Origin: Amoebophrya sp. A120
Taxonomy: Eukaryota; Protista; Dinoflagellata
Direction: 5' to 3'
Length of the DNA: 64,000 bases
Assembly (NCBI GenBank): GCA_905178155.1
Contig: CAJINV010000001.1
Span: forward strand, 7,075,794 to 7,139,793
Shown here: in pieces, positions 1-64,000 of the stretch
Position numbering within the stretch: the first letter of the stretch is position 1
How the letters are laid out: each line of letters begins with the position of its first letter
Position numbers and translations under genes: made by a program
The notes under the pieces: model-generated
What the model saw: the letters and a program-made list of their open reading frames with translations, nothing else
Told to the model about the DNA's origin: nothing
The model's database searches: none

Positions 1-93
1 TATCTGTTTCCGCGGTGGCTTTCGCTTGTCAATCTATGTGCTTGCACAACATAAGGTAAAACGAACGAGCTCTTGCACCTATTACCAACTCAG

Positions 94-23943: not shown

Positions 23944-26900
23944 ATGGGGGGACCAAAGGGCATTCGGTTCCTCTGGGCTACGCGCGAGAAGCGGGAGAAA
24001 GCGCCCAAGCTAACGATCCGGGAGACGCACGGCGATCTCGAGAAATGGGTCTCGTCACCGTCTCAGGGGGCGAGTAGAGACAAGGAGCCTTTTTTTGTTT
24101 ATCGACAGCCTAGACATGGAGGCAGCAGCTCTGGGATTTGGAAGCAGGTGAAAGATACCTTCTCATTTATCTGGCAGCAAAAAGCATCAAGCAAGAGTGA
24201 CGAGGGCAACGTCGAGGAAAACGCCGAAACGTCTTCCGCAGAATCGATGAGTAACAAGTACGTGAAAGTACTCTGGTGCAGGTACCGCATGACCTTTACG
24301 CCCCAAGAACATGAAGACGAAAAAGATTATACGGTGTTGCTCCTCGATCGCCGATGGATTCGCAAGGGAGAGGACTTTGACACACAGAATCCAGTCGAGG
24401 AGGACGGGATAGCGGAGGAAGACGAAGAACGGCTGCAGGACATGATCAAGGATTATTTCCGGCTGTTGCTTGCGGAAGCGAAAGGCAAAAAGCAAAGTGA
24501 TCTAGCAGAGTTTCTTGATGAGTACCTGCAGCGGGTATATCTTCGTACGGGCGAGCGCGTGCTTGACAGGTTGACCAGTGCACTACACGAAAACGCGAAC
24601 CTCCGGAGGGAGCTTGACTCAATCGTGCAATTCAGTCCGGCGGTTACGTTTTGGGCAATCTTTCACATTCCCGGAGTGACAGAAATCCTAAGCGAAAACT
24701 TTGACTTTACGGCTTTGGTGCATCAGGTGTTGCAGCAGTCTGATAGTGACCTTCCGAGATGTAGAAACGCGGTTTTGTCTCGCTCTGGAACGGAGTTCAA
24801 TTTGTTTTACCGCGCTTTCAAAAGGTTCGAAAAACACCGCCTTGCGCTACTTCTTCTGGCTTTGAGATGGTCGGGTCTGGCTGGGCCAGACAAACGCGAG
24901 GCTATGGGAGTTGTGGAAAAGAAGGCGCTAGTGGATGTAATCCAGAATAGCATTCAGTGGAAGAGCAATTCCGCAGTGTCGGATGTGGATTTGGCACGCT
25001 ATCGCCCCGTTTTGGATCTGGAGACGGTGCACAAAGTTATCGGCTTCCAGGGGCTCTCTTACGAACCCGTACAGAAAATGATAACCCGCCTGTGCAGTTA
25101 TGACCAGCGGGCTTCGAGCAGTGGAGGCAAAAAAACAGCACCACCCGACTGGTCCGTGCCACAGCAGAAACACAGTATTGACTATGACCTGAAGCTATTC
25201 TTTATTCAGAAAGGCGTCCTTCGACAGCGCGAGTTTATGCTGGCCGCACGAAATAGCCGGGACTTTCCTGGAGACGAGTACCAAGGCCGTTCCTTTCCGG
25301 ACAAAATGATGTTTGATGTAACCGAGTCGACTCTTGTCAGCATCCAAGGGTTTCTCTCCCGACACGAGGCGGAGTTTGGCAGGCTTCAGGACAGCAAGGA
25401 ACTGAGTGAGTTGGTCGTTCATTTCCTGAACCATTACTACCTCACCGCAACTGGAGCTCCAGGGACAATAGGCAAGGACAACCCCTTTGTGCAACGTCTC
25501 ATCGGGTCCAGCGGTTGCGTCCCGCACTCGGAAAAAATGCTGAAATTTCTCTTGCGGAAGCTTGCGAAGATCTACCGGGTAGAGGCCCACGTGCTGACAC
25601 GCACCGTCATTGAACTGGCAGCGAAAAAACTCAAGCCTGAACACCGCTATGAACTCGATTTGAGTCTGCTGGAGTTTTGCCGGCCCCAGTTTGAAGGCAT
25701 CGGAATGTCTGCTCGAAACCGGATACAGATGTGTGCGGAGCTGCTCAAGCTTTCTCCGTCTCTGACCGACACGAGGGTCCTTGCAATCTTCCCGAATTTT
25801 GTTGAGTACGCGCTGACGCAAGGTTGCGGCGTGGATCATGCTGACCACAAGAAGAAGTTCGAAGAGATGGTACTCTCCGACGTGCTGGCTAATTTGACCA
25901 CCGCCCCGAACATGAAGGAAAGTCCGAACTTCTGGTTGGGTCCTGAAGGCAATGAGGAATCACGGGCAGCGGGTCAGCACCCTGCCGCCGAACACCAGTT
26001 GCAGAGCCTGGGTTCACGCATTCTCAGTAGCCTTTTCGACAGCACTTCAATCTCTGATCTCAGTGTGTCTCTCATGAATGAGCATCCGGAAGTTTTCTGC
26101 ATGGAACTCGAAAAGCGGTGGACAAAGGCAACTTGGTGGGCCGAAGGGAAATACATCTCCATCGACGACGCTGCGCAAATGCACATGTTGCAGTCTTTGC
26201 GTGGACGTGAGGACGAAGAAGATTCCGTGTGGCCAACTCTGTTCCAAGTAGAATCAAATGGCAGTGTCGAGGAAAGGAAGTGTATTGAGTGGGCGGTGCA
26301 GATGTTCGTCGCGCACAACCGTCCGTTGAGTGCTTTGTCAAGAAAAAACTACACCAGCTCCGCGTCGAGCTCCAGCAAAATGCTATGCGACGTTTGGAGC
26401 TACGTCTCGATTCTGAAACTTCTCGGGAACACAACTCCCGATAACATGCACACAATCACGGACAAAAGCTCCTCGTCGACGTGGGGGCTCGTATGGTGTG
26501 TTTTCGCTGTAGAACACAACACCGCGGAGTTTTTCCAGGTTGGATCCCTTCTGCATCCAGTGACATTTTTCAGGAACCAACTAAAGAAGGAGTTCGGGCA
26601 GGACTCGTGCATTCAGGCTCACCGCCATCAGGTGGAAAAGTTCCGGCGACACTTCAATTTGTCGAGCGTCCTCACCAAACACGCTCTCGCTGCTGGCTGG
26701 ATCTCACGGGGAGACGAGAGCGCCGGGTGTGAAAGCGGAATTCGGGAGTGGTGCGCCGGGTTCGAAAAGCGATTATCTGGTTTGAAATACCCCGAGCTGA
26801 GTTTTGAAGAGATGAAAGGCGACCACAGCGGCACCCTGTCCCGCCTCCAACTGGACTTCGAAGGAGCGGAATTCCAACTGCTTGTTTTCGCTCTAGAGTT

Positions 26901-29900
26901 GGAGCGCCAGAATGGGCAGCACCGCGCCGACTTTTGGAAAGCATTGAATTCGAGTTTTGAGCGCTTAAAGCGGTTATTCGCTGCCTTGCGAAGCGGTAAC
27001 CTTCGCCCGGACGATCCACTAGTGATAAAGATACGTGCAAAATTTGCGCAGAATTCCTACCGACTTGGCGAAGAGGCGCAGCACCTGTGCCGATTGATGG
27101 GCGAGGATCAGGAAGACCCCGTGATTCGCACACGCCTCCGCATCCTTGGGTCTACCCTAAGTGTGTGGCGCGAGCGCATCACTCTCCTGCGGCAGCTCGT
27201 TTCCACCAAGAGCCGTCATGCGAACCGGACAGGGGCGCAGGCCGCGGAAGTTGCGGGCGGAGGACCAGTTGGCCGGTCGGCTGACAGCACGCTGGATAGA
27301 CTCGCGATGGAGCTGGAAAACTCGAGCTTGTCCCTTTTTTCAACCTCGGACGGACGCTCCGTGGAGCAAGTTTTACAAGACCTGTCCGTTTTTCTCGGAC
27401 TTCGGGCAGAGGAACAGCGCGAGCGTCTGTTTCGTTTGCACTGGTCGCAGCTAAACTGCCTGGTCGTTATTGCAGAAAAGGTGTTTCCGAAGCTCGTTCG
27501 CTACTCGCATGCGCAGCGCGAATCGAAGCTGGACGCCATCCGGTCGATGTGCATCTATCGTCCGGAGCTGATGCTTCCGTGCAAACAGCTCGAGACCATC
27601 GTTTTGAATCGCAAACTGAAGCTGGTGTTGGACCAGCAGAAGGAGTTGAAGGAGGAGGTGGTAGGGCTTCTGGAGGACCGCTGGTGCACCATCTTGGAAA
27701 GTCTGGACGCGGCGGGAGCGCAGAACCTCGCAAAGGTGTTCAGCTCCGCGGGAAGCGAAAACGCCTCCGTGCGCGGGCGCCAACTACTCGACGAACTGCA
27801 GGCGGCGACGCTCACGTTGGACATCGGTTCCGTGACCGCCACTCTCAGCCTCGAGTTTTCGGAGCTCTCCGGGAACCACCTGAGCAAGATTGCAGCGGTG
27901 TGCGGCAGTGGCGGTCGTGTCCGCGACGCTGGGGGAGTAGCCCAGGCGAATATGCGGCGCATCGGCGGGGGACAGCTGGCACGTGTGCGCAGCGAGTTAT
28001 TCGCGTGCGGGCGAGCATGGAAGGACGCGGCACAGGACGCAACGCAAGAAAACCTGCATCAGGTGTTTCTGGAGAATGCGGACCACTTCTCGCAGCGGGT
28101 GGACTGCCTGTTGCTGCGGCTGCCGGTGCTGTGCCAACTGCTTGAGCGGGGCTGGCGTTTTCCCTCCGGGAACGCAAAGTTGAAATTCAGCGCGCTGCCC
28201 ACGGATCGCAATGCGTGCTGTGCCCCAATCGACAAAGACTTGGACATGGCGCTCCTCCAGAAAGAATTGGAAAAGCAAAAATCCTTCCTGCGACAGATTT
28301 GGTGCCGGTGCGCACTGTTTTCTCTCGTCGACCCGATGCTGGTGGAACATGAAAAGCAGGCTGTCGTACCTTTTCTTCGCAGCATCCCGATCCGGGAACG
28401 AGGGGAGGGATTCGATGTATTCTGTTCTATTTTCATCTCATGTGCCTGTGCGTTCACTTCTCTTCCTCTGAAATCGAAATACACTTGGAGTTAGAATCAT
28501 TTTGACAGAATGCATTCTATCGCTCCATTGCGTTTGCTTCCATCTTGCAGGTGTCCTCCGACGGCGTGAAGCTCGATATTCCAACGACACTGCGAAACAC
28601 CGACATCGCCTCGACGCAGAAAGGGTACCTGGACAAAGCTCGCGATGTCCACGAACGGCGCTTGCAGAGCGGTGTGCGGAGCGCTGACTATGCTGCGGCG
28701 TTGGGGAGCAAGGTGCTCAGGGATCCAGAAGAAGTGAAAAAACAAACCCAAGGTGTGTGGGACCAATTGACAAAAGACGACGCGCGATTCACCGTTCTGA
28801 AATGCGAACCAGCTGACTTGGGCACGGCTTTTGCCAAAGTTGTACTGGCGGTGATTTCGCACGCAGACGAGAACCTGAGGCTCACACCGGATGCGGTTTT
28901 CAACTGCAGCGAGACGACGCGGTCCGTTGCGATTGACGGTTTCTTGTTCCGCCTGGATGTGGATTTCTACGACACGGAAGATCTGGTCATCATCAGCACA
29001 CCCGAGTTGATGGATCCGGAGTTGCAGAACCTGCTCGTACGGCGGCTCGTCGCCTGGACAGAAGAACAGACAGTAGCGACCGTCCGCGGCCCGCGCATTC
29101 TGGTGCTCGTCGGCAGTGCTTCCTCTGCGTACTTCAGCTTATGTGCGTGGCGAAACATGGAGACGGAAAATGAATTGGCGTCGCTCTACGGTCCGGGCTC
29201 GGTGGCGCAGTTTCCGGTTTTGCGTGACAGCAACGTGACAGTCTTTTCTGGCGCTCCGCTGTGCGGAAAAACGGGCGACTTTGAAGGGCACGATTCCGTG
29301 CGGTCTCGCGACGCGGCCAAACGGCGTGTATTGGTGACACACGAGTGCGTAGAAGAAGACATCGCACAGCAGCTGCGGGAGCTCGTGGCAGAAAAGGACG
29401 GCGAAAGGATTCTCGTCGATTTGGGGCAGTGCGCGTTACCAGACAAGGCCTACCGCTTGGGTGTTTTTCTCGTATCGCTTTGCGTGTTCGGTGTCGCGTC
29501 CCACCAACTGTCGCGCCCGTGCGTGTGGCGGTCGCCGGGCTGGCCGCTCAACGCAAGCAGCAAGACAAAGCCACTGGCTTTCGAGATCTGCAGCGTGGCG
29601 CAATTTCCGGCGCTGGCAATGTTTCCGCAGAAAAACTGCGTCGCTAAGGCGGACGCCACCGCGGACACCGTGCGCCCCTCGGCAAGTAAGCTTTTTCCTA
29701 GTCTCGAAGCTTTGCGGGCTCGTGTCGGGAACGAGATTCTGAAAGACGAGAACGTCATCAGTGCGCTGTCCGTGGACTTGGGTGCTTTGGGTATGGATTC
29801 TTCGTGCGCCCAACGAAATGGAGACGTGAACGGCAAAGACACCACTGCTGCGCCGCAAAGGTCGGTGGAGCACCGGTCGGATTCGCCTTTTTCGTACACG

Positions 29901-32900
29901 GCCGACTCCCTGGAAAAAATGATGGAAATCCTGCAGCGAATGGTGACATTTTTTCAAACTCGGGACGAGAGAAGTAACACACAGCGCGATGAGCTGGTGA
30001 TGCTTGTGGGCGAAACCGGCACAGGGAAAACCTACACACTTCAGAAACTGGTCGAACTACTCTTGCGCACAGGCTTGCGAGAGATCCGGTGCTCGCTGCT
30101 GTCGCTCAGTCATGCTTTCTCCGAGTCTCAACTACACGAGTTTGCAAAGGACGTCGCCGAAATGCGGACGCGGGCAGCCATGCACATCATCATCTTGGAC
30201 GAAGTGAACTCAACGCCCGCACTAGATTTCTGCAAACAACTGTTGGTGGACCGCAAGTACGGCAGCGGTATCGAAACGCAGAATTTGCCGCGCAACGTGT
30301 TGTTTCTAGCGACGTGCAATCCCGCTATTGGAAAGGAATACAACGTCTACCAACTTCCTGGCTCGCTCGAGTGCGCTCGTCTGCAATTTCCAAGTCTTGG
30401 CCCGGAAAAGATGCAGCAGTACCTGTGTATGAAAGTTCGAGGCGATTTTGTCAAGGGCGTACAGGGGTGTCAGGCACTGCTCAAGTCCATAGCCCCGGTA
30501 TCTTTGCGTGACGCGACGCGCTGCATTGATTTGACGCTGGATCTGAAACGCGATCTCTTGGTACACTGCACTGACAAGCAGAATTGTCTACTACAAAGGG
30601 ACGCATTACGGGAGAAGTTGCAACTAGGTACCAGCAGCAGCGACGACGAGACGGACGAAGGTGCAGGCGAGGCCGGCTCAATGGACCTAGATCTGTGCAT
30701 CGCTGAGGTTCTGGCACTATTCCTGTCCTACGGTGTGCAGATCAGTCCGCGTGCGCGCTTCTACGCGCAGATGAACGAGATCTACGGCGAGGGATTTGCG
30801 GAAGCTACGGTCAGCGCGCTGGGCCGCGCAATCTTCTCGGAGATCGGAGCGGCTTCGTATGTGGTGCCGACAGAGTCTCTCCTGGAGAATTTAGTCATGC
30901 TACTGTGCTGCATCACCACGAGCTGGCCGTGTTTGTTGCTTGGCGACGAGGGCGGGAGTAAGACCATGTCAATCAGTCTTATCACGGGCGCAATGAAGGG
31001 GCCTTTGTCACAGACGGCGTTCTTCAAAAAGCTTCCAAGGTTAGAGATCTTCCGTCTCCAGCTGGGCGCTGGTACGACCGCATCGCACATCGAGAAGTTG
31101 ACTGACTGTGTCGGCGCGTGGTTGAGTCGCCAAAGTAGCGACGCTGAAAAAGAAGCATCCGAGCAGACCGAAACGTCGCTAGAGAACGTGACCCTCGGGC
31201 ATTCGCATCGTGCGCTGGTGATTCTGGAGGAGCTGGGTATGGCGCGGCTGTCTCCATCGAAGCCTTTGAAAGCCTTGCACCACTTGCTCGACCGCCCGAA
31301 GATTTACCCGCGCGAACCGAAATTTGCCTTCGTTGCCACCGCGAACTACTGTCACGAAACCGGCGAGGACAATACCGTCAATGCGTCGTACGCGAACAAG
31401 ACAGCGTCCACGTCCAAGCGAGCAGATCCGGTCGATAGTGCTTTGATCAATCGACTGATCGTGTCGCGCAGCGAGAAGCTCGAGGCAGTAAAGTTGGAGG
31501 ATTTCTGCATCAAGCTGGCGCAGAGCGCCGCGGGAGCCGAGGGATTCTCCGACCGGCGGCGAGAAATCGTCCGCACCGTGTGCAACCAAGAAACGGGAGG
31601 ATTTTCCTTCGTGCGCGACGTGATGGCTTTTTCTCGCAGCGTGGGCTCGAAATCTGGCGTGCACGAGCTCGGGGCTCTTTTTTGGACCCATTTGCAGAGT
31701 CTAGATTTGCGGCAAACCGAAGCACGCTGGGACAAGTATTCGGATGCCCTCAGTAACCTGTTTCGACATGCTACCAAGCCGTCCTTTCTGTGCCACGCGA
31801 CGCCCCTGGAGCAGAGCTTACGAGCTTTGCTGGCGGGAAAGGGCCAGGTGGTGCGGCATTGCCTAGTTCCCTATCGAACGCCGGAAGCAGCCGTCCGGGT
31901 CTTGAACAGGATTCAGGCCGCAATCTCTACTGCGTGCGAGGCCAAGCAACTGAAGCACGATGCCGTGCTGTGGTGCCGGTGCGATCCGTCGTTACAAGTG
32001 GTCGAAGCGGACATTTACGGGCACTTGCTCGACATCAAGACCGCTTTGGAAACGGGCATGATCGCGGTCATTTTCAACCCACCAGCGGCCATTCTGAACG
32101 CTCTCCATGCGGTTCTCAACGCGGACTATGCAACAGCAACGGCCGATCAGGGACAGCAGTCCATCACAACTACCATCAACCACGACTGCTTGTATGAGGA
32201 AGTGCCCATTCACCTGGACGCCAGGATTGTGCTGGTGTCCGAAGAAAGTGAAATTCGAAAGAACTATCACCCGGCGATTCTAAGTCGCGTGAGCATCCTG
32301 CATCCAAACGAAGCAATCGCACCCGCACGTCATGCAAATGCGAACGAGGGGGAGGGAGCCGCGACCTCGTTGGTTCGGTCGCCACCGCTGTCGCCGGAAG
32401 CATTACTTTTCCGTCACGCACAGAGCGAGAAGCTTGAAGGCGGTCACAGTAAAAATAGCTCTCCGGCTATTGATCTCACCGCTCTGATGCGGAACAGCAC
32501 CGAGGAGCTGCTGTCGGTTTTCTCCGCAATCGAAATGTCCTTAGACCAGGTGTTAGCCCGTTCCACAGAGACAAACCCCCTTACTTCGATAGTCGTCACG
32601 CGAGGATCGACGACCAGATACTTTGCGCAGCAACCGCAGGTTCAGTATCTCCAGGTCATGGGGTGCGGCAGCCGGGCCAAGTTTGAAAGTCGATTCCGCG
32701 AAATGCGATCGCAATCTGATGTTGTTGCGGTGGACATGTACGGCAGCTCCCTGCTGCGGACACTAGATTTCTTTCTGAGTCTCGGAGTGGGTGGCAAAGT
32801 AGGACTGAAAGATTCCAGCAAGAAGAACAGCGACGCCGTTGTCCTCCACATCAAGAAATTACCACGGCACCTGATCATCATCGTGCCGCCCATCTTCAGC

Positions 32901-37916: not shown

Positions 37917-38769
37917 AAAGTTGGTCGCTGATGTTTGTGTTTTCAATCTGAAAGAATGTCAACTTATTCCATATCGTAGAAGGTCTTGCTCGAGATCTTC
38001 ATCTACACTTAGATTCTAGTACGAAGCAAGCCTTTGTTTGATGGTAATGAATTTTTGTACTACTCGCAAACGCAATCCCATTGATGTGCGACTTCGTCCG
38101 CCCTCATTCGTGATTCCATGGCGGATTTTTCTAGGGGAACCCATCGCCGGTGGCCCTCCCTTACTCATTCAAGTCAATATCGGCATCCTGATTCTGGATG
38201 GACGGCTACCAATCTTCGCCCGCAGTTGCAGTTGGCCATCGGAGGCGCAGCAATGAGACTGCAAGCCACTATAATCTTTGTCAATGTAGGTAGCAGCAGG
38301 TCAACAACGTCCAGGTCTACTCGATTCTCAAAGATCCTGGATCTGACATAACGACAAGATCTAGTATCGTGCTCAGTACTTCTTCACATGTTTTGGAAGG
38401 CTTTTGATCAGCGGTCGTGGACGTGGTTGTGTTGTGAATGTAGTAGTCTAGAAAAAGCTGTTTCAAGTTCAACGCTGTCGATGGAAGAAGCAAACAGAAG
38501 CTCAACTGAACCGCGCGAGAAGACTTTGTAGTATGGCAAGTTTTTTTACGCTCAAAACTGTGCAAGCCCGTAAGAAAAGAAAAAGCTAAACCCCACCTCT
38601 CTCCTACATCCTTGTTTTGTTGCTTCGGGTCTCTGTCTCTCGGAGTTAGATTCGCTTTTTTTCGACTCGTATGACGTGTTTGAATTTGAAGAGTTGTCAT
38701 CCACTATTTCCACAAGTCTTATCTTCTGGCCATTCTGAAACACGATACGCTAGAAACGAGAACTACAAG

Positions 38770-44700: not shown

Positions 44701-47700
44701 CGCATTGCTGGACTTTTGTCGCGGCGAGGAAAAGGATTTCCCCGAGGAGGCACGTCTGGTGTCGTCGCGTTTGACCCCAAGCGCTTTCGTGGCGATCGTA
44801 GCTCGTTCGACGAGCGCGAAGCAAGTCGCAATCACGGTTCGTGCCTTCCTAAGGCACACCCTGAAGGCTACTTCTTTTGCTACAAATCAGCGGCCCGCTA
44901 CTGTGCTGGCAAAGGTGCTCGAAGCACTAGTGGAGCAGAATATCACGTTAGTCGTGCCGTTTTTGGAGGAGCTTGTTGAGGAAGCAGAACGCAGTGTGGA
45001 TGAGCAAAACGATGGCGTTATAGACTTGTCTGCCGTCACCAATCCCGCAGTGTGCACGCTTTACGAGTGCCTGAAGTCGCGCAGTTTGGGAAAGTACATC
45101 GATTTGGCCCGCAAGCGAATCGATCGGGAAGCTCAACAGGCAGATGGCGACACGCCCATCATTCCCGTGTCTTGCGACACTTCCGAAATCATGCGGACCC
45201 TCTACATCGACTACTTTACGAAGCACTGTTCGTACGAAAAGTTGCCCGATGATCTCGATCTGCACCGATACCTACTCACGGACAACTCGCGTATCTCGAT
45301 TTTCAATGCTCTTGCGACGCTGGATAGCTTTGCAGGCGCGGAAGACGAGGAGCACACCGAAGCGCCAGGGGCGAAGGGCACTAGCAGACAGCAAAAAATC
45401 AAGAACAAATCCTTGTACTGGCATTGTTGGGGTCGTTTGCCCGACCGCCCTTTCGAAGACGCTTTTCTGCCGAAATCTCGCCGCGAAACCGAGTCTTTTG
45501 TGCAAACCCTGCAGCACGAGGCAACAAACTTCGTCGAGCAAGCTGCCCAGCAGGAGAATGTACTCTCGCAGACGGCACAGTTTCTCTTAAAGCCACTTAC
45601 GCTGAACAAGGGCCTCTACAACTCGGTATCCGGGAAGTTACCTTGGATCTACGTGCAAGATTTCGCTGGCGAGGTGAAAACAGGATCCCGAGTCGGGGCG
45701 GCTACGTTGTCCGAAGCGGACGCTGCTCGTTTGTTTGGGGATGGTGCGGATGATTCCGGGCAGGATGGGCCGAAAGCCGGTGGTCCAGGTTTTGCGGTTG
45801 CTGACAAGGTAGTTCCGAGTCACGAATTGCGAGAGGAGCTCTTCCTAATCGGCCAAGAGGATAACAAGGACTTCCCGCCGTACTACTTGATGTGGCACAA
45901 CCGCCCGCTTCCGGAGGGAATTGTCAATAAGTTCGCCTCCCAGATGCAAGATTCGGTGGAGCCTCTTAACAATGTCCGCCTATTCTTTCCCAGACTGCAA
46001 GATGGAGTGAGCGGAAGTAGCATTCGGCACAACCTAGAGGTTCTCCTTGCATTGGAACGTGGCAACAAATGCTATGTGAACCATATCGACACCACGGAGG
46101 AAACGGGGGCGGCCATGACGTCGCACGCGTACATGTTTGGTTTTACAATCGTCGCGTGGTTCTGCGCAATTGGATTCACTAGAGACGTGTTACGGGCACT
46201 GGTCAAGCCTGCATTCAAGGACTTGTTCTTGAATATCTGGCAGACCTTCGCCGCGGAGGGTGGCAAGAGACTCCGAAGGACATGTGCTTTGGGACCGTTG
46301 CCAACTTTGATCGAGATAGCGCTTAAGGACGAAAAAACCGGCGAGGTGCCACTGTTTCGGCGAACCGACCAGTCAGCTCGAGTCACGCTGCAGAAATTGA
46401 ATACGTTGATTGCGCATCTGGACATGGCAAGCGCCCACCAGGAGTACCACTTGACGGATTTTATGACGAAAAACGAAGCAGGCCGCAGCAGTGATGTGAC
46501 ATTTCAGCCACGCTACGAAAAGGCGCTCGAAGAGGTGGCATTTATGGTCGGTTATTCCTTCGCCCGTGACGCAGTGCCGGACGGTTCATCCGAATTTGTG
46601 CGGCTTCAGGCTCGTGATGTTGACACTAGACGATTGATCGAGCGGTACAGCATCGTCGCGGACTTCTCGAATCAACTTTGCTTGGGGCGAAACGCCTCTA
46701 CGAACAGTTCGTCCGCGTCCAACCACATGCTCGGAGTCTTCATGGAACATTTGACACAGGGACTGTCTTTCTTCATGCAGCAAAAGCTGTTAGACCCCAA
46801 TTGTGGCGAACGTGGCATGATTTTGGGCAGAATGGTAAGCGCGATTGTCTTCGACACCTGCCTTGTGCTGTACGGAATCACCCCGCTCAATTTCGGGGAG
46901 GAGATGTACATGCTTGCCGAGGCGTACGACCGTCGCAAGCTCTGCATTCCACAGCAAGTCAAAGCGGAGATTTTATGGATGATGCAAAACTACTACGAAT
47001 GGCACAACCTGAAGGCGCTTTTCAAGGAAACAATCGCCCGAATGAAAGCCATTGTGCAGATGTGGAGCGTCCATGGCGAGAAAGGCAGGACCATAACATT
47101 GAAGCGCAAGTTCTTCCAGGCGAATGTCCCCCACGTTGCCACGGTCATGCAGCATTGCACCAATGAGCAGGGTGGTAATGCGTTTGCTCGTCCGCCGTAC
47201 GACGGAGCCGCGCGCTTTCGTGACCTAGACAAGGTAAAAACTGAGATCGAGAAGCGCAAGCAGGAGCAGAAGAGCGCGGAGCACAGCGCTCCTCCAGACG
47301 AGCATTCCGGGGATGGAAAGACGAAGAACAAAGATCAATCGAAAGCAGAAGACGCAAACGCCGCATCGAACATTCGTAGCGCGCCCATGTACAGTGGCGG
47401 GAGTGTGGATCAAGGGAGAGGAAAGCAATCTGCGAAAAAGGAAGCGCGGTTTTTCATCGCTGGCATGAAACCGGATATCAACGTGCACAACGTCAATCGG
47501 GTTCATCGTAATGCGGGCGCCTCTACCGGAGTTCTTGCTTTGTCGGGAGGGGCTGGCGCGGCCAGTGGCACGGCGCAAATTTCGTGTCGGGAGCTGCTTG
47601 ACATTCAGACCTGCGACGAAATGGCCATGTACGGCACACTGCGTATCACCCCCGGCCTGCAACCACTTCTAGTGCACGTTGATGGTGAAGGCGCCGGCGA

Positions 47701-50700
47701 GACGCCCTATTTCAAGCTGTGGCACTCCATGAAGGGAGAGGAACAACAGCGGCGGCGGAAGAAGAACAGCAGCGGCCGTGCGAATAGTGAGAGCATCGTG
47801 AAGGTGTTTGCGCACAACGGGGATGCTTGGCGAGTGCTGAACGATCTGCCGTGCGGCTCGACACTACAGTCGAAGTTTTTCTATCTGCGCAAGGCGGAAA
47901 ACGGCCGTTGGATGCTGTTGCTCTCGTGTACCTGCGCATCGGAAAAGGAACAGCAAGCGCTTGCAACGGTTCCCGGAAAACTGAAGCAAGAAAAGCATTT
48001 GTTGAGTGCCATCCTGTACTCGCATCGCATGGCGGGACTCAATCTCGACCCTCGTGTGATGGAAGTGTTGCATTTGCTTTTCTGGGCCGCTTGTGAGGAG
48101 CTCGAGTACTATCCGAAGGGTAGCGAGCCCGGACAACCTAGCGAAAGGAGAAAGTGCCCAGACAACCTAGTGACGCACGCGCTGCAGCTGGAGCGCCTCC
48201 GGCAGATTTGTAACCACTCGCGCGAATTGCGGAAGTCCAAAGCTGGACGGCAAGACAGCGATCCCATTGACGAGTTGCACCAATGGTCGTTCCTGGTGTA
48301 TCAAGACACGGAGCGCGAGTACTGCAAATTACTGCTGGAAGCCCTTCAAGAACTGCATCGTCGTCAAGGAAGTAGCGATGAGTCCGTTCGGGGTGTCATC
48401 ATCGAGAAGTTCATGCAGCGGACCGGTTCCCCGCAACAAGAGTCCGCCGACGAGAGCCGCCCCGTGCGTGGCTGTTTCTTTCTCAGTACTGAAGAAACCG
48501 GGAAGCTGTCCCCCAGCGGCAACCGACTGGTGCGTGCGCTGTCCAATCTTGTGGGAAGCAACAACGTGGCGCCCATCCTCCCGTTGACAAGTATTCTGCA
48601 AGCGGTGGTGAAAGCCATGGAGCAGAGTCGGGACAAGACGATCGCGCGCAACCACCGAATCACCAAAACCGATTTTGCTATTCAAGGTGCGAAGCGGCTG
48701 GCCGAGGTCCGCCGCGGGAAGCCCGCACGAGGGAAAAAAATGGACTGGTTCAAGGATATCACCGACAGCGAGGAGGAGGACGAAAACGACTCCGACTCAG
48801 AAGACGAGGACTACGATGGCGGGGAGGGTCCTGCAGGCGGCTTTGGACTGCAGCGCGAACCGGCCAGGTTTCTAAAAATTTTCAACATGCTGATTTTAAA
48901 TCTTTTCTGATTTGAAGTGCCCTAAGTAGTGCCTACGAAATCGTGATCATCAAATTCTCAGGTCTTCTGGAACTACGGTGGCCCGTGAATCAGCTGGCCG
49001 GGATTTGCGGGAAACGGAGAACGCTTTGTATCGGGAGCGTGAATGTGAAGCCCGCACCTACATCGACACAGACGTGGATCGCGACCCGAACCGCGGCGCG
49101 ACCTTGTTTCCCTCCGAGGAAAATACGGGTTTTGGACGGGCGGTGAATTCCGTATCCACTGTGTTGTCACTGTGGAACGCAGACTTGCCGTTCTACCTGG
49201 TTCACCTGAATCATCACGAGCAAAAAATCAAGTACACCGCCGCGCGGGGTCTGCCGCTCGCCTACGTTGTTGACAAAGATCTGACCGCAGACCTGCTCGA
49301 CCGAACCTACCACAACTGTGCCGCGGGCAACGAAGACTCTGAGTCGGATCATGAGAGTGACAGCGACTCGTCAGGATCCGGCTCTAGCATGGACGACGAG
49401 TCGGTGGACGAGGAGGTTGTCGATAAGGCAGACGATGACTGGGCAGGAGGCTACTACGACGAATATGGAGAATGGATACCGTATTGGGATAACTACGACG
49501 AGAACGGAGAGTGGAACAACAAGGGAAACAACAACCACGGCGCGACTGATCAGCGTTCAACTTACCAGCCGACAAACAGACGCAAGCGGGAAAGCGCCGG
49601 CATCTTCACGAAGGAGGCAAAGGAGCGCCGACGGGAAAAGCAGCAAAGCCGTGCGAAGGCGAAGGAAGCTGGTCGTGACCGCGCGATTGATCGGGTCATC
49701 ATGCTCCGAGGCCAGCTCTTGCCCTGGATCGGCAACATTTTGCGTTCCCCCCTGGCCGCCAACGTGAAGGCGTGGCTCCTGAACATGATTCGCTGTGTCG
49801 GGGAAGCGACGGGGGCGCCGCCGCAGGAAACGTCCTGTACCAACTTGTCCATCATTCTGTACTCCCTCCTGCGGTGCTGCCCGGCGGACACCTTTCACGC
49901 ACAGCAGCTGCGACGGCATTTGGTGGACAGTTTCGTATTGTCCCCGGCGCTGGAGCGGTTCATCCAGCGACGCTCCGGCGGGTTTGGCGTGTATGTGGTG
50001 AAGGGTGGCACGCTGACCAAGTTGAAGCAGCTCGGGGTGAAGAACATCGCCGAACTGGACTACAGCCGTCAGGTGTGGCAGAGCTCCATGAACAACAGCA
50101 GCATGTACCTCGACATCATTCGTCGGTTCGAGTCCGACTACTGCTGCTTCGTCTACGTGCAGGGGCTGAAGAAGATCGACGACGTGCTGCTTAAGTGGCT
50201 GGCGGAGTACTCCCGCTACAATCCGTGGCGCTTTATCTACCTGGAGAACGTCGACCTGTCCTGGAACTTCCCGGAAAACCGGGACCGCTGCTACTTCACG
50301 TTTGCGCCCCCGAACCCGGCGCACCTGATCAAGAATGTGCAGGATTTGAACAACTCGCACGTCGGAGGGCTGCGCCCCAGTCACATCGTGGCGTACGAGG
50401 CCGACGCGCTGTGCTCCAGCGAAGTTGCGCGGAAGCCTCTTGAGTTGCGGAAGTGGTTTCGGGACAAATTTCAGACGCTGATTCGCGACGAGGAGAAGCT
50501 TGACGTCTTTTTCGGCAGCAACCACGGTGGACCCCGCTCTGCTAGTACGGCGAGAGGTACGTCTGCGGCGAGATCAACCCCGGAGCAATCGGCCTCCGCT
50601 CGTGTGACCGGGAAATCGCAACTGCAGGGCGACTTTCGGGACACACTGGATAAGTATTTGTTGCCCACCGGATCGGATAACGCTTCCTCCGTGTCCTTGA

Positions 50701-53217
50701 CGCTTCTGGTGAGCCCGCCCGGAGCTGGTAAGACCTACCACACGAAAGAAATGTGCCCGAAGCTGGAAGCGGCCGGAGACTCGGTGTACGACTTTGACGG
50801 ATCCAGTGATATTTTGGTCAAGGAAACTCTGTCGGAGCAACTGGACAAAACCATGCGGGGGGAGACGAATCTGCGCACTCGTCAGAAGAAGGTCGCCGAG
50901 GGCGAGCCCGAGCAGTCCAGCGCGTTGCAACAGCAGGGGGGGCGTCGCATCCTGATTCTGGACGAGTACCACTTTCTCTCCGAAGAACAGAAGACGGAGC
51001 TTTTCGATTGGTTGCGCGACAAAAGTAGTCAGGTGACAGTGGTCTTGATCGCAAACCGCATTGACGCCCGCGACCGAAAGAAGTTAACACAGTGCCGCCT
51101 GCTCCGCCAGGAGGGCGAACAGGATGTCGGGTCGTCTAAGAAACAAAGTTCGGCTGCTGGTGCCCCCGCGCACTCGTCGGTGGTCCTGTTGGAAACACGA
51201 TTGACGCAGAAAAAGATCAAGGAGGTGATGCCGAAAATTGTGTCGGCAGCGTGCAACGAGTTTGTGGAAACGTGCATTCTCAAGTGGTTTTTGGCTAGCC
51301 GCCTCGTGTTCGGCGACGAGTCCGTTTCGCTGCGACTGATTTCGGAGCTGTACCAAATTCTTATTGCAAACAACGAACGTCGCAGTCAGCACGAGAACCT
51401 CGAGGCGTTGTTGCTGAACAAAGTTCCCACTCTGTCTCGGTGCAGCGCGACCGAGTTTGTAGGTGCGTTCTTGAAGGATTGCAAGCTGGGGAACAGTTTA
51501 GGCGGCTCCTGTGCCGTCATGTACCAGGTTGCGCTGCTCGACACCAAGGACGAGCTGTGCCCCTACCGCGAATTCACCGAGGTACACATGCCGGAACTCT
51601 CGGCGGTGCCGCCCGTGGTCCGCATGCTGGCCTGGTGCAGCTACATTCTGGAACAGACGGGGCACTCGAACTCCGCTATTGACTTGAGCCCGATTCTGAG
51701 TTGCGAGTACGTGGATCAAGTCGGCTACCCCTTTCAGCTGCAGGTACAACTTGCTCTGTGTCTGTTTTTCAGAAGTAACCAAACGAGTGCGAAAAAGTAT
51801 AAAGCGAGCTCTGATTTATTGGATTTTCTCCTATTGTTGCCTGTATGCACCTACGAGGAACAGATAGAATATCAAATCTAAAACCCTACAGGATCCCGGA
51901 TTGAATCACGCACATGGTCGCGCGTTCTCCTGGGGCGGAGATTTTTCGAACTTGGATGCCATCACGGATGCGGTCAAGCGCGGGCACAGCGTCGACTGGC
52001 GAGATGTGTACCAGCAGCAGTGGTCAAAGAATGACGTCACGGATTTGGAGGCTTATTGCAGGCTGTTGCACGCGGACCGCCGGCCCAGCGCCATACTGAT
52101 GAATACGCGCGCTACAAACCTGCGAAACCTGATGTGCCAAGCAGGAAACACCGCGGATGCCTGCACGCTTGCGCGGTTCATTCTGCAGTACAAGGTTTGC
52201 CAGAAAGAGACGGGTGAACACGACAATCCTTACGCTTTGGCGGTGTGGATTTTGATTCGCGATGACAAAGAGGTAAATGAAGCAAAGGACATTCTTGCCT
52301 TGACCGACCTCAGACAGTCGACCGGCAGTGTTGACGGGTCTCCATCCGGGTCCCGTACGACAGGGAGGAACGCGGTTCCGACGCCGGGCAAAGAGAAGAC
52401 GAACAAAGAAGAAGCGGGAGCAGAGGACGATCAGAAGGATTTTGAGCAAAGCGACCACCCTTACAGTGGTACTAAAAAAGAAAAAGGCAATCAGGACCTC
52501 GGAGTCAAACATCCCAACATGCTTGCCGCCCTGCTGTGGGCGCAGCAGTATTCCTACCAGCAGCGCGTCACGTACGGCGACTCCGCGGCAAAGCGAGAAA
52601 AGTTGCTGCGAGCGTTGCTGAAGCTGGTCAGTACCGACCCGAAGATTTCGGATAAAAGCCTCGGGTGCCTGTGGTCCGGAAGTTTCGCCTGCCTGCTCGA
52701 CGTTCCGAAAGCGGAAGGCACAGAAAAGAAGCAAACCACGTCTTCGTCGAAAAACTCTGGATCCCTTTCTGGGACGAGCAAGCAGGACGACAGCGAGGTT
52801 TCGGTGCAGGTTTTTCGGCGCATTTTGCTGTCGCGGGCGGACAAGGAAACGGACTGGAGCAGCGACGTGCGAGACATGTGGGATCTGTTGCACTATCGGA
52901 TCCAGAGCACCGTGGTGAACCAGATGTGGGAGAGTTCGCGCTTGCGGCACCTGTTCCTGAAGGACCACACCAAGGGACACCAGCTTGACCCAACCGTGAC
53001 TCTCGGTCTCATGCACGTTGTCGGGGGGCGCTTGTCTCTTGCGCTGCAGAAAGCGTTGCTCACCACGGGCAGCGAGATTCCGCCCGTCATCACGATCGAC
53101 AGTTTTTTGCGAACCACCGAAGACCACCTGCGGGTCGTGGAGGCCAAGGACGTTCATTTGGAGCATCCGGACCATTCTTTCTTGCCCAAAATTCTAGAAG
53201 AAATCGAGCAGCGGTGA
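38770..53217 (+). CDS. Giant uncharacterised P-loop NTPase, ~4,690 aa. Exons 38770-44316/44325, 44453-48867, 48962-51743, 51892-53217
   Basis: Four long ORFs (1916, 1453, 967, 438 aa) are linked by phase-compatible GT-AG introns. Walker A LLVSPPGAGKT (~50703-50735), Walker B ILILDEYH (~50949-50972) and a sensor-like VVLIAN. An internally duplicated module is visible by eye. Confidence 0.78.
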
Positions 53218-54047
53218 ATGGAAGGCAAGACGCTGTGATAGATTTGAAAAACATTCATCTTGGCCTCAGTTTCACAGAAGATCTTCTTTTTTGTCTGTCT
53301 TTCGCTTTCCACGCTTCCTTGTCGTATCCTTACTTTAGGTAGTTCTCCTCTACTGGCACAGAAATGGATGCGAGAAATTGCAATATGTCGATTCGAAAAT
53401 CAAAGGACCAAGCACGGAACTTTGGCATTACGGGAAAAGACAAAGATAGATTTACTATTTTCTAGTTTTTAGCAGCTTTCTGCGCAACTCCCCGTTTTAC
53501 CTAGAGACTAGGCTTTGTACATCGCTTGCTCGCTCTTCCGGCTCATTCATCAACATCTATCGGACACTCCCTTATTCCTTTCGAGCGTCCCTGGAAAGAG
53601 AGCACAGTCGATGTTGTCTCGCGGACACCTATTCAACATTTGTGAAGAAAAGATTGAAGCATTTTTCATAGCAAGGACTCATTCTTACCGCCAACGCCAT
53701 TGGAATCGAGAATATCTAGTGTGCTTGTGTACTTACTAGGTTCTGAACCACGTCGCTCGTGTATCCATTGTCGCGACGACTAGTGTGTTATCCTCCTCTC
53801 TGCTTCTGACAGAGAAAACATCGCCGTGGCTCCTTGACCGCTGAAGAAGGTGCAAACCAAACTCATACGGCACTGTGCTCCAGCTGAAATCGAAATCAAT
53901 TTATCCTTCAGGGCACGACCATGATTTGTCAAAACGATCCAACAAAGTTGTTTGCAAAACGTCGACTTTGTTTTCGTTTTTTCATGCATCGTTGTTGTTT
54001 GCATCGTCGTAATTTGAGGAGCCTTTTCATGGAAATATCCACAAAAA

Positions 54048-56345
54048 ATGGCCTCCACGACCACGAACAGTGCCGCCAGCAAAACGCAGAAAGAAACAAA
54101 AACTCCGTCCGAGACCGTCGACGATGAATTTCGCATCGTGCGGCTTTCCGACCTGAGATTTTCGCAGACCTCAATTTCCCGTACTTTTAAGGAGAAAAAT
54201 GGGCCGATCACGAAGCTCCGGGACGAGTTGCGCCACCGGCACCCGGACGACGTTCTGGCTGACTCTCCGCTGGAAGTCGTGTGCCACAAGCGCGAGCTCG
54301 TCAGCATGGATAACAGGCGCCTGTGGTGCATAAAGAATGCTGTCCCCGAGTACCTGCACCACAAAATGCAGCTTCGGGTACGCTACTATCCAAGCGCAAA
54401 CGCCTTTGACGCGAAAAACGGCCCGAAGGCGTTCGATAGCAAGTACAGTTCCCTTACGGGCGGTCGTAGTGTCGTTCTGACCGAGACGCACACTCGTGGC
54501 ATGAATGCGAGAAAGTTCGGAGTTTCCTGCGAGGAGCGGTACATTGTTTGCAGGCCCGAGGTTGCGCGTACGGCTGAGGCGCGCGCTCTCGTGGAGAGCC
54601 TGAAAGAGGAGCATGGGCTGGAGAAGGCCTGCTTCGTAAAAACGAAGAAGGACGACCAGCCTGGTCCTCAAAAGGATGTTTGCGTCGTGACTGGACGGCG
54701 GCAGGACGTGACGATCGCAGGCACAATTCTGCAGAAGGAACTCGGGGAACTCCCGCGACCGGAGGAAGCCACAGTGGCATCGGAAGATGATGAACCAACG
54801 CCGGCCGTCCGACCCGTGCGCAAGCGAAGTGAGGACGCTAGTGGCATTCCCTCAGGGACAGGTGCTCCAGCCGCAAGTGATACGGAAGATCCCTTTGGAC
54901 TGTTTTCACGCGGTGCAAACTTAGGTGCACATAGAGAGAAGGCCGGTAGCGTGGACGTGACCGCTCCACCGGAAAAATCGTACTCTCTATCGTCTTCAGA
55001 TACCTGTGAAAAACAAGATGAGGCGAAATTTGAAGATGACGACTGGGGTTTGAGCTCCGACAGTAGATGGGCGACGGATGAGAACTGGTACAACGATTGG
55101 TCTGGGGAATTTTGGCCGTTCGCGGCCTCCTGGGATGACGCGACCGGTACCGAAGGCGGAGACGGAAGCGCGTCGCTTCTGCAGCAGAGCAGCTGCCCTG
55201 AAGGAGCCTGGCCGTTGTCTACCAGTGCGGATTGTCCACCATCTGTTGAACGTGAACCTGATGAGGCTGCGCGGCCTCAACAGTCAATACCCCAAACAGC
55301 CGCGCCGAGCAGAACGTCCTCTGCCGGTAGTGCTGCATCACTGTCATCTTTTTCAGCGAAGAAGCGTTCGCCTGCACGAGATCACATAGGCAGGCCATCT
55401 GTGGCTGCACCAGCCGCGGGCCTTCTTCCGCGCGCAGAAGATGCTGGAGCTACTATCGCTGGTAACCGCTCGTCCGGAAGGTCGTCAAAGCCTTCTTCTG
55501 AGCCAAACTCACCGCAATCCACCGCTTCCGTCGTAACGCCGCTTTCAAAGAGGAAGCTGTTTCAACAGCCGTCGCAAAGGCGAAAACACGAAGCAGAAAT
55601 AGGAGCTCCAGAGACTTTTCTCGAAGTGCGATCGTTTTTCCATGAAGAATCGGTTATGGTCGCAGTGCTTGCGCACTTGCAGAATGGCGGCCTTGGACAC
55701 AGCTGTGATGGCGCATTGCGTCCCATTCAGAAGTGCGCGCTTCCCCTGCTGCTCGGTCCGGCGCCTATGGGGTGTTCTGCGGAAAGAAACAGAGTATGCT
55801 TGCAAGCGGGGAACCACAGCGGAAAAACCCTGTGCTTGCTGTTGTGCGTTTTGAAATTCCTTACGAACGGTGGTACACCCATGGCAAAGGTGATGGTCGT
55901 CACCCAAGATAGGAAGAAAAAGTGCAACTTTGCGCAGCAACTTTGCAAAGTTTTGACCGCTGTGCGGTTTTGGGATGCGGACGCAGCAGATGCCACCATG
56001 CACGCAATGAGCGGTTCTACGCGCAAGACAGAAGCGTTTAGAAGGGCCCTCATGAGGGACGACCAGAATTTTGTGCTGATCGCAGAAAGTGCTGAGATCT
56101 TAGGCGACATCATGGACCGACGTGGGCAGCTGCGATCCCTGCAACGCAGCTTTGATTTGGTTGTTTGCGACGATTTCGACTTCTATGCGCAGCCGTCAAT
56201 TTGGTTGCGAGCGCTACTGAAGGAATCCGCGTTTCGGGATGTCCGCATGGTGTTTGCGACCGGTAGTGAGGGAAACAATAGGAACAGAGACGCGCTGCCC
56301 GATGGTGTTTGTTTTGTGAGTCAGAAAGGAGTGTCGATATCTTGA
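54048..56345 (+). CDS. Intronless 765-aa protein: N-terminal ParB/Srx-like domain, possible KH-like domain, S/P-rich linker, C-terminal degenerate DEAD-box-like RecA1 domain
   Basis: LRFSQTSIS..F...PLEVV.....VSMDNRRLWC resembles the ParB-like (RFSQ...DNRRL) family. The C-terminus has a Q-motif-like LRPIQKCALP, motif I AGNHSGKT, motif II-like LVVCDDFD and motif III-like FATG. No second RecA domain precedes the stop. Confidence 0.7.
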   Translation: MASTTTNSAASKTQKETKTPSETVDDEFRIVRLSDLRFSQTSISRTFKEKNGPITKLRDELRHRHPDDVLADSPLEVVCHKRELVSMDNRRLWCIKNAVPEYLHHKMQLRVRYYPSANAFDAKNGPKAFDSKYSSLTGGRSVVLTETHTRGMNARKFGVSCEERYIVCRPEVARTAEARALVESLKEEHGLEKACFVKTKKDDQPGPQKDVCVVTGRRQDVTIAGTILQKELGELPRPEEATVASEDDEPTPAVRPVRKRSEDASGIPSGTGAPAASDTEDPFGLFSRGANLGAHREKAGSVDVTAPPEKSYSLSSSDTCEKQDEAKFEDDDWGLSSDSRWATDENWYNDWSGEFWPFAASWDDATGTEGGDGSASLLQQSSCPEGAWPLSTSADCPPSVEREPDEAARPQQSIPQTAAPSRTSSAGSAASLSSFSAKKRSPARDHIGRPSVAAPAAGLLPRAEDAGATIAGNRSSGRSSKPSSEPNSPQSTASVVTPLSKRKLFQQPSQRRKHEAEIGAPETFLEVRSFFHEESVMVAVLAHLQNGGLGHSCDGALRPIQKCALPLLLGPAPMGCSAERNRVCLQAGNHSGKTLCLLLCVLKFLTNGGTPMAKVMVVTQDRKKKCNFAQQLCKVLTAVRFWDADAADATMHAMSGSTRKTEAFRRALMRDDQNFVLIAESAEILGDIMDRRGQLRSLQRSFDLVVCDDFDFYAQPSIWLRALLKESAFRDVRMVFATGSEGNNRNRDALPDGVCFVSQKGVSIS

Positions 56346-63776: not shown

Positions 63777-64000
63777 TATCAAAAGGAAAAATCCCTCCTC
63801 CCCATATCGAAACGAAATTTCTGATGCTGGATTTGGATACACAAATCAGATTTGTGTTGCAGAAAGGCATTGCGGCCAGATCCCCAGGCTAGGTGGGGGC
63901 GTATGGGTCTAGTTGCTCAGCATGGCAAACGGCCCCCCTTTAGGCCCAACAGCATGACAAATCGCCTCCATAATATGGCGGAAGCTTCTGCCCTTGTCTT
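63777..64000. mobile_element. Probable left end of a fifth introner (truncated by the window edge)
   Basis: Similarity to paralog A stops here and no GT donor lies at this point. The sequence starts TATCAAA like introner 2 (introners 3 and 4 start TATC) and contains GCATGACAA (63952-63960). Confidence 0.55.

What the first reader, a model, noticed from the sequence alone, without database searches (positions are those of the whole stretch)
23944..56345. Candidate protist innate-immunity block: RNF213-like E3, orphan giant NTPase and ParB-like/DEAD-like protein, between two paralogous surface-protein genes
Seen: three co-oriented genes, two of them >4,500 aa, with only 4 introns in ~32 kb and no TIR introners. 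The flanking genes have roughly one intron per kb. The block sits between two copies of the same giant surface-protein gene. Established: RNF213 is an AAA+/RZ-finger E3 that ubiquitylates intracellular pathogens (including LPS), and ParB-like, P-loop NTPase and SF2-helicase domains recur in biological-conflict systems. Inference: this may be a clustered sensor/effector defence module, acquired or relocated as a unit. I know of no description of such a cluster in dinoflagellate-lineage parasites.
Basis: partly seen in the sequence, partly recalled or inferred. Interest (0 to 1): 0.85.

Follow-up and report, generated by a model that had tools for sequence, protein, structure and literature searches.

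The report
RNF213 relative beside unnamed giant ATPase
In the marine parasite Amoebophrya, three neighbouring intron-poor genes encode a relative of the animal immune ubiquitin ligase RNF213, a 4,700-residue member of an unnamed protist-wide family with four predicted ATPase-like modules of which likely only one works, and a protein with a predicted bacterial-toxin-type ParB domain; they are likely native neighbours rather than an imported defence cassette, and a shared immune role is untested.

Summary
The layout is real: three + strand genes (about 4,595, 4,692 and 765 aa) with 4 GT-AG introns in 30 kb of coding DNA, between two ancient paralogues of a surface-protein gene. Gene 1 is a RING-less RNF213 relative that keeps AAA3/AAA4 and the RZ catalytic Cys/His. 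Gene 3 has a Tox-ParBL1-like domain and half of a degenerate DEAD-box. Gene 2 is not an orphan. It belongs to an unnamed 3,000-4,900-aa family (193 clusters; choanoflagellates, Bodo, Kipferlia, Entosiphon, Symbiodinium, Amoebophrya A25). It is internally duplicated, with four AAA+-like modules, one intact site and an invariant arginine finger on the dead module before it. The 'imported cassette' reading is not supported: co-orientation is the genome norm, GC matches the genome, gene 2 groups with its own lineage, and a close relative's copy is followed by housekeeping genes. Linkage in A25 and co-induction could not be tested. The intron deficit is real and unexplained. The scan noted protist RNF213 relatives, and probably this giant ATPase family, before on other DNA.

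The parts
23944..37916 (+). Gene 1: RING-less RNF213-like AAA+/RZ-finger E3 ligase, ~4,595 aa, 2 exons (intron 28366 or 28417 to 28550, inferred)
   Evidence: run contigs cover parts of the 3' half, e.g. 34970-38206 in one piece
29997..31346 (+). AAA3 and AAA4 of gene 1: Walker A lysines K1967 and K2278 kept; Walker B DE in AAA3, EE in AAA4; both following arginine fingers kept; IR3 loop missing
35787..35885 (+). RZ finger: catalytic C3898 and H3919 kept; the Zn-ligand His position is Tyr, with a Cys two residues upstream (likely four-Cys variant)
   Evidence: Pfam PF20173 E 5.5e-14; alignment to RNF213; residue roles from PMC11549300 passages
38770..53217 (+). Gene 2: member of an unnamed giant protist AAA+ family, ~4,692 aa, 4 exons (introns ~44326-44452 inferred; 48868-48961 and 51744-51891 seen spliced)
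41356..41754 (+). Gene 2 N-terminal degenerate AAA+ module (no P-loop motif), preceded by a beta-rich domain and a helical bundle
   Evidence: AF2 model pLDDT 83.6; VIA Z 9.2, rmsd 2.9 A, 116 aligned to RFC 2chg; the 50 rows shown are nearly all AAA+/P-loop proteins
49941..50492 (+). Gene 2 dead AAA+-like module with an invariant arginine (R3766, 28 of 28 rows), likely an arginine finger
   Evidence: (tandem match to NVL/Rix7 over model residues 97-640)
50625..51422 (+). Gene 2 intact AAA+ module: Walker A K3914 (28 of 28), Walker B D/E, sensor-1 N and lid R (each 27 of 28)
   Evidence: (Z 12.9, rmsd 5.3 A, 194 aligned, RFC 2chg)
54048..56345 (+). Gene 3: 765 aa, intronless; Tox-ParBL1-like domain (about 54120-54491), low-complexity linker, degenerate DEAD-box RecA1 domain only (about 55719-56267)
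   Evidence: one run contig covers 54382-56467 unbroken
8868..22381 (+). Flanking paralogue A: giant surface-protein gene (signal-peptide-like start, hydrophobic C-terminus), about 15 introns including TIR elements
57214..64000 (+). Flanking paralogue B, 5' part, 31-54% identical to A; runs off the window

Best explanation
These are three real, transcribed Amoebophrya genes that likely sit side by side as native neighbours in an ordinary co-oriented gene run, each likely working on its own: an RNF213-like ligase predicted to be ATP-gated, a giant ATPase predicted to act as a one-site switch, and a ParB-type protein predicted to act on nucleotides or RNA. Gene 1 mechanism (inferred from RNF213): ATP bound at AAA3/AAA4 would activate transfer of ubiquitin from an E2 to RZ Cys3898 and then, with His3919 as base, to a target surface. 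A RING is not needed for this. Loss of the IR3 wedge would weaken one autoinhibitory brake. Gene 2: the motifs and the internal duplication are shown, the fold is predicted and the action is inferred. An ancient duplication gave two halves, each with two AAA+-like modules and a helical part. Only the last module keeps Walker A/B and sensors, and the dead module before it keeps an invariant arginine. The pair would form one composite ATP site, as the catalytically dead clamp-loader subunit does for its neighbour (recalled). The protein would then be a nucleotide-switched scaffold that grips and releases a large substrate, not a processive motor. The vWA tail of some relatives would be the grip. 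Gene 3 (inferred): the ParB/sulfiredoxin-type domain would carry out phosphoryl transfer or nucleic-acid attack, aimed by a half DEAD-box module that cannot unwind alone. A surveillance or defence role is likely for gene 1, plausible for gene 3 and open for gene 2.
For: Co-orientation is the norm. Gene 2 groups with A25 P0017, L001 and P0015 (SH-aLRT 99, quick tree), inside a clade with Symbiodinium (93). No relative was confirmed in prokaryote genomes (0 of 12 pattern matches) or viral contigs (0 of 15). Block exon GC is 54.7-57.9% against a genome exon mean of 56.3%; the flanks, at GC3 0.78-0.79 against 0.58-0.68 in the block, look like the outliers. None of 18 relative loci matched gene 1, six RNF213-like proteins, gene 3 or six surface-protein exons at E<=1e-3. 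L001 is followed by a PP-loop gene (E 4e-8) and a gene with a weak DHX29-UBA hit (E 0.18). L001's own copy shows only three breaks in 12.7 kb, at other positions, so few introns is at least partly a trait of the gene. Internal duplication: profile N3 against C3 probability 95%, E 3e-8; N2 against C2 E 9e-4; N1 against C1 only E 0.096 but supported by the fold. Motif conservation. RNF213 mechanism: passages of PMC12075652, PMC7311170 and PMC11549300.
Against: Three adjacent genes all resemble conflict or immunity proteins and all are intron-poor (4 against about 18-43 expected), which is odd if they are unrelated. Unchecked scan notes describe other giant genes of this genome with about 60 and 149 introners, so size does not explain it. 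The linkage test is weak: most of the 18 loci hold little beyond the gene, only L001 is a close relative with downstream DNA, and none shows the upstream neighbour in a close relative. The tree is the unfinished 'quick' one (SH-aLRT only, seven long branches). Vertical descent was tested for gene 2 only; gene 3 has no close relative (1 hit, itself, of 1,404 candidates) and gene 1's best hits are 20-29% identical. The genome's exon GC probably includes UTRs, so the block may lie slightly below the coding mean. No activity was measured, and the model coordinates could not be inspected to see where R3766 points.
Confidence: 0.58

Rival explanations
1. The three genes form a native, selected defence cluster: gene 2 senses an intruder (virus, bacterium or host-derived membrane), gene 1 tags it with ubiquitin, and gene 3 is a nucleotide- or RNA-attacking effector.
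For: RNF213 is a pathogen-coating E3 in mammals. Gene 3's domain matches toxin tips of RHS, HINT, VENN and MafB proteins by predicted structure (TM 0.59-0.68). Gene 2's family is multi-copy in Bodo (2 named records), varies at its tail (vWA in 3 of 12 scanned) and is divergent. The three genes share an intron deficit and lower GC3.
Against: The gene 2-gene 3 link is absent in L001. Gene 2's core motifs are near-invariant across eukaryote supergroups, which fits a constant job as well as an arms race. No defence-family profile passed convincingly (best PADLOC rows are P-loop-only, E 1e-4 to 0.04).
Confidence: 0.22
2. Gene 2's family is a housekeeping remodeller of flagellated protists (for example a midasin- or clamp-loader-like assembly factor), and the whole block has nothing to do with defence.
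For: The family occurs in choanoflagellates, a kinetoplastid, a euglenid, a fornicate and dinoflagellates. Closest folds are RFC, ORC/Cdc6 and p97-type proteins. AAA+ plus a C-terminal vWA recalls midasin (recalled).
Against: No animal, fungal or plant name appeared among the family representatives I looked up (23 of 150; many are unnamed). The modules are split into two pairs about 1,800 residues apart rather than a contiguous six-module ring. This rival does not account for genes 1 and 3.
Confidence: 0.15
3. The block was recently acquired or moved as one unit between paralogues A and B.
For: Few introns, no introners, lower GC3 than the flanks, and a position between two paralogues.
Against: A and B are only 31-54% identical, so the duplication is old. 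No edge repeats or mobile genes were seen. Gene 2 groups with its own lineage. The introns are ordinary GT-AG, AT-rich ones like those of the flanks.
Confidence: 0.05

Closest known systems
Mammalian RNF213/mysterin (PDB 9jwg, 8s24, 6tax; PMC7311170, PMC11549300, PMC12075652)
   Same: Size, order AAA3-AAA4-AAA5-RZ, Walker A lysines, both arginine fingers, RZ catalytic Cys/His.
   Different: No RING (a single CxxC in the whole protein, inside the RZ finger), IR3 loop missing, Zn-ligand His replaced, AAA4 Walker B reads EE, and the N-terminal 1,474 aa have no detected match.
Clamp-loader (RFC), ORC/Cdc6 and tandem AAA+ ATPases NVL/Rix7, as folds for gene 2
   Same: AAA+ alpha/beta core and lid (Z 12.9 and 9.2 to 2chg); two modules in tandem.
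   Different: One 4,700-aa chain, internally duplicated, with three of four modules dead; sequence identity to these is 2-20%; the beta-rich domain and the middle ~1,800 residues are unassigned.
Midasin/Rea1 and dynein-type concatenated AAA+ proteins
   Same: Several AAA+ modules in one giant chain, most inactive; a C-terminal vWA in some relatives.
   Different: Two separated pairs rather than six contiguous modules; the active site is near the C-terminus; this member has no vWA hit; the RNF213-like core profile matches only the Walker A strand region (38 columns).
Tox-ParBL1 domain (Zhang et al. 2012, PMC3482391)
   Same: N-terminal Ser and the N-R-R motif; predicted-structure neighbours are polymorphic-toxin tips and eukaryotic domains; sulfiredoxin/ParB_N appears by features at 0.75.
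   Different: Here fused to half a degenerate DEAD-box domain; dinoflagellates are not among the eukaryotes listed in the passages I read; no secretion signal and no immunity gene seen.

Membership tests
RNF213 | Intact AAA3 and AAA4 nucleotide sites with arginine fingers | tested here: met
   K1967, D2024/E2025, K2278, E2367/E2368 (EE also in P0001 and P0183), arginine fingers aligned
RNF213 | Six contiguous AAA+ modules in a dynein-like ring | tested here: inconclusive
   Profile matches at AAA3, AAA4 and weakly AAA5 in order; AAA1, AAA2 and AAA6 not resolved; this region was not folded
RNF213 | RZ finger with catalytic Cys/His | tested here: met
   PF20173 52 bits, cut-off 27; C3898 and H3919
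RNF213 | RZ zinc site of three Cys and one His | tested here: inconclusive
   Three Cys kept; the His position is Tyr, with a Cys at 3889; a similar extra Cys is seen in P0003 and P0001
RNF213 | RING domain | tested here: not met
   No RING hit in either exon and one CxxC in 4,595 aa. So filed as an RNF213-like relative, not as RNF213 proper
RNF213 | IR3 autoinhibitory loop in AAA3 | tested here: not met
   About 7 residues where 8 of 8 homologues have a longer loop
RNF213 | E3 activity and coating of pathogens | not testable with these tools
   Needs biochemistry
AAA+ ATPase (gene 2) | Walker A, Walker B, sensor-1, helical lid | tested here: met
Midasin/Rea1 | Six contiguous N-terminal AAA+ modules | tested here: not met
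   One intact P-loop near residue 3914; modules found at about 860-1000, 1200-1420, 3650-3835 and 3880-4145
Midasin/Rea1 | C-terminal MIDAS/vWA domain | tested here: not met
   No hit in the last exon; present in 3 of 12 relatives scanned
STAND/NLR-type immune NTPases | STAND NTPase with winged helix and sensor repeats | tested here: inconclusive
   nSTAND5 hits in 2 of 12 relatives are below cut-off; Avs5 rows at Z 11.0-11.3 lie below RFC at 12.9; no repeat family hit
Tox-ParBL1 | Conserved N-terminal Ser/Thr and [NT][RT][RT] motif | tested here: met
   Ser in the motif at residues 38-44 and N-R-R at 89-91, against the definition in PMC3482391
Tox-ParBL1 | ParB/sulfiredoxin fold | tested here: inconclusive
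   Atlas features 0.95 to an unnamed cluster and 0.75 to sulfiredoxin; TM 0.59-0.68 between predicted models, whole-protein pLDDT 0.52; no Pfam hit
DEAD-box helicase | Two RecA domains with intact motifs I, II and III | tested here: not met
   Only the first domain, E 2e-4 and below cut-off; motif II reads DDFD; the protein ends about 30 residues after motif III
Mobile or horizontally acquired gene island | Foreign composition, edge repeats, mobility genes, discordant tree | tested here: not met
Conserved defence gene cluster | Linkage kept across relatives and co-regulation | tested here: inconclusive
   0 of 18 loci show a partner gene but only L001 is informative, and only downstream; no expression test was possible

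The most novel reading that the evidence does not exclude
A parasitic dinoflagellate keeps a clustered cell-autonomous immunity kit in an introner-free island: a RING-less, wedge-less RNF213, a toxin-derived ParB effector, and a member of an undescribed protist-wide class of giant, internally duplicated AAA+ sensor-switches with one composite ATP site.
Probability: 0.2. Interest if true: 0.85.

Novelty: new variant of a known kind. Interest (0 to 1): 0.5.

Why it matters
Even without the cluster, two things are worth having. First, an unnamed family of 3,000-4,900-residue AAA+ proteins spans choanoflagellates, excavates and dinoflagellates with near-invariant catalytic residues and an internal duplication; Bodo saltans and choanoflagellate members make it testable. 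Second, a natural RNF213 relative that lacks both RING and the IR3 loop but keeps the RZ dyad points to the minimal ancient core of this immune ligase. If linkage and co-induction were shown, it would be a clustered innate-immunity locus in a protist parasite; my six literature searches found no such description.

Tried and rejected
No genome is held for this window, so genome-wide intron-versus-size statistics and the A25/AT5 gene order could not be computed. No listed holder run is on record as RNA; X3-X6 are guessed RNA, and their contigs skip GT-AG introns. Contig cover differs between runs (paralogue A bridged in X6, the block best covered in X3), but contig depth cannot rank genes, so co-expression is untested; the 5' parts of genes 1 and 2 have little or no cover. 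A search for an A25 orthologue of gene 1 by the RZ region found none of 65 candidates, and the whole-exon search listed no Amoebophrya protein. Supplements of PMC7789003 (1 file), PMC6176090 and PMC9478091 held no neighbouring gene ids; bioRxiv supplements could not be seen. L019-L021, bacterial 'hits' to gene 3, are matches of one short word in unrelated frames and were rejected. Alignments A4 and A5 spread the N-terminal query over the homologues' C-terminal motifs and were discarded; A6 is in register for about residues 61-400 only. NCBIfam, PADLOC and PHROGs gave only P-loop-level hits. The Atlas gave only generic AAA clusters below 0.9 for gene 2's tail. Foldseek gave no E<=0.001 match for the N-terminal model, so its beta-rich domain is unassigned. 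Viral scans with P0001 and P0023 were empty, as were a plasmid search with gene 3's domain (one row, E 0.4) and PDB sequence searches with gene 3 and a paralogue A exon. The careful tree did not finish. Self-association of gene 2's ATPase half remains untested.

Full report
Source. The last 1,452 residues of my gene 2 model are identical to public record P0008, which its source lists as Amoebophrya sp. A120, CAD7925071.1. The public model thus covers under a third of the gene. No whole genome was held.

Observation. Seven long + strand frames between 23,908 and 56,342 join into three genes: gene 1 ~4,595 aa, gene 2 ~4,692 aa, gene 3 765 aa. Two introns are seen spliced in run contigs. Two are inferred; for gene 2 the join is also supported by a homologue alignment running across it (P0015, residues 1479-3439). 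No 100-nt window inside the block exons falls below 42% GC, against 33-45% for the four introns, and contigs covering 34970-38206, 49121-53697 and 54382-56467 show no further intron, so hidden introns are unlikely where tested. One DNA contig covers 18942-38499 with no difference at even depth. Paralogues A and B are collinear at 31-54% identity. A has about 15 introns in 13.5 kb, six bridged by one contig, and TIR elements lie at 3816-4106 and 12972-13143.

Is the layout special? Co-orientation is not: 98.5% of A120 genes lie in co-oriented blocks (PMC7789003, section 5 read). The intron deficit is: 4 in 30,156 coding bases against 1.42 per kb (section 10). The deficit is partly a gene trait, since L001's copy of gene 2 has three breaks in 12.7 kb and several relatives are on record as 3,600-4,900-aa proteins from 20-50-kb contigs; that sample is biased towards intronless copies, and other loci (L014, L018) look intron-rich. 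Codon use differs from the flanks (GC3 0.65, 0.68, 0.58 against 0.78, 0.79; 0.71 in 671 codons of other genes), but total exon GC equals the published exon mean.

Gene 1. The best PDB matches are 9 RNF213 sequences (E 7e-13 to 9e-11). Seven relatives were found among 7,983 candidates scored, 20-29% identical, including two vertebrate RNF213 records and a Physarum protein. A profile of 8 homologues matches AAA3, AAA4, weakly AAA5, and the RZ region in order (E 2e-46). Both Walker A lysines and both arginine fingers are kept; AAA4 Walker B reads EE as in P0001; the IR3 loop is missing. The RZ finger keeps C3898 and H3919, the equivalents of human C4516 and H4537 (passages of PMC11549300). There is no RING. 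In mammals ATP binding at AAA3/AAA4 activates the RZ ligase and RING is dispensable (passages of PMC12075652 and PMC11549300); IR3 is proposed as autoinhibitory (passages of PMC7311170). The RZ domain is already traced to unicellular eukaryotes (passage of bioRxiv 10.1101/2025.10.14.682297).

Gene 2. A search with exon 3 gave 193 clusters at E<=0.001, 111 at 1e-10 and 34 at 1e-30. Named members come from Amoebophrya A25, Symbiodinium, Salpingoeca, Barroeca, Bodo (2), Kipferlia and Entosiphon. Similarity runs along most of the chain for the closest relatives. An AlphaFold2 model of residues 3555-4251 (54 sequences, pLDDT 86.9, pTM 0.88) shows a helical domain, an alpha/beta module without P-loop, and a full AAA+ module with lid; best match RFC (Z 12.9), with tandem matches to NVL and Rix7 spanning both modules at high rmsd. 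Walker A K, the arginine R3766 and E3762 are present in 28 of 28 aligned rows; Walker B, sensor-1 and the lid arginine in 27 of 28. A second model, residues 596-1030 (22 sequences, pLDDT 83.6), has a beta-rich domain, a helical bundle and another P-loop-less AAA+ core (Z 9.2, rmsd 2.9 A; Z is modest, but nearly all 50 rows are AAA+/P-loop proteins over the same span). Of 45 region pairs compared, the two best are N3-C3 (E 3e-8) and N2-C2 (E 9e-4), in register. So the protein is likely an ancient internal duplication with four modules, the second of which rests on profile evidence alone. Three of 12 relatives end in a vWA domain. A quick tree of 40 core rows (38 of the 57 aligned segments plus L001 and P0015; near-duplicates and short fragments left out) groups gene 2 with A25, L001 and P0015 (99), within a clade holding Symbiodinium (93).

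Gene 3. Pfam gives only a sub-threshold DEAD hit. The Atlas places residues 20-160 with unnamed, mostly eukaryotic clusters (0.93-0.95), sulfiredoxin (0.75) and, by predicted structure, proteins of the RHS, HINT, VENN and MafB toxin classes. The motifs fit Tox-ParBL1, which is described in many eukaryotes as an acquisition from polymorphic toxins (passages of PMC3482391). The C-terminal domain is one RecA-like half with altered motifs.

Linkage. Of 172 pattern matches in metagenome contigs, 18 loci encode a gene 2 relative. None matched gene 1, gene 3, six RNF213-like proteins or six surface-protein exons. Only L001 is both close and long enough downstream; there the next genes are a PP-loop protein and a likely helicase. 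Its upstream side is missing. This weakens a fixed gene 2-gene 3 link and says nothing on gene 1-gene 2.

Verdict. The parts are real and interesting; the cassette is unproven and, as an imported unit, unlikely. I put native unrelated neighbours at 0.58, a native defence cluster at 0.22, a purely housekeeping block at 0.15 and a moved unit at 0.05.

Literature. Searches for protist or dinoflagellate RNF213, for immunity in Amoebophrya and for a giant AAA+/vWA family (listings only) returned no description of this locus or of gene 2's family; the library lacks most subscription papers. PMC12130899 was read in passages; PMC6176090 and PMC9478091 only by supplement search. The roles of the dead clamp-loader subunit and the midasin layout are recalled. 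Earlier scan notes report RING-less protist RNF213 relatives and a giant protist AAA+ family with occasional vWA tails that is probably this family; I could not compare sequences.

Noticed in passing
window 3749-7317: DegT/DnrJ-type sugar aminotransferase gene (Pfam E 5e-17) with a TIR element at 3816-4106 and an unassigned N-terminal part; a bacterial-type enzyme family in a dinoflagellate parasite.
   Followed up: partly
window 18412-18970: Composite repeat inside paralogue A, at very high copy in DNA run X1 (hundreds of contigs; bin depth 40,309 against 42.7), next to telomere-like loose ends at 18717.
   Followed up: no
window 19130-19368: A TT..AG non-canonical intron, spliced in run X6.
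   Followed up: partly
window 12970-13145: Non-GT-AG intron with nested inverted repeats in paralogue A.
   Followed up: no
window 8868-22381 and 57214-64000: The two giant surface-protein paralogues have no Pfam hit at E below 0.08 in nine exons tested and no PDB hit for one exon; their family is unidentified and their GC3 is high.
   Followed up: partly
window 28679, 35733, 38413, 49428, 54220: Run contigs leave the genomic sequence at these points, most in two or three runs; possibly short overlaps with other transcripts, unexplained.
   Followed up: no
window 1-2268: 3' end of a coiled-coil protein gene, no family assigned.
   Followed up: no
window ~49890 (gene 2 residues 3630-3631): A Cys-Pro pair is conserved in most relatives (Cys in 22 of 28 rows) in the helical domain before the dead module; role unknown.
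   Followed up: no
P0016 residues 34-78: One gene 2 relative has a weak N-terminal bacterial SH3_3 hit (E 5e-4, below cut-off).
   Followed up: no
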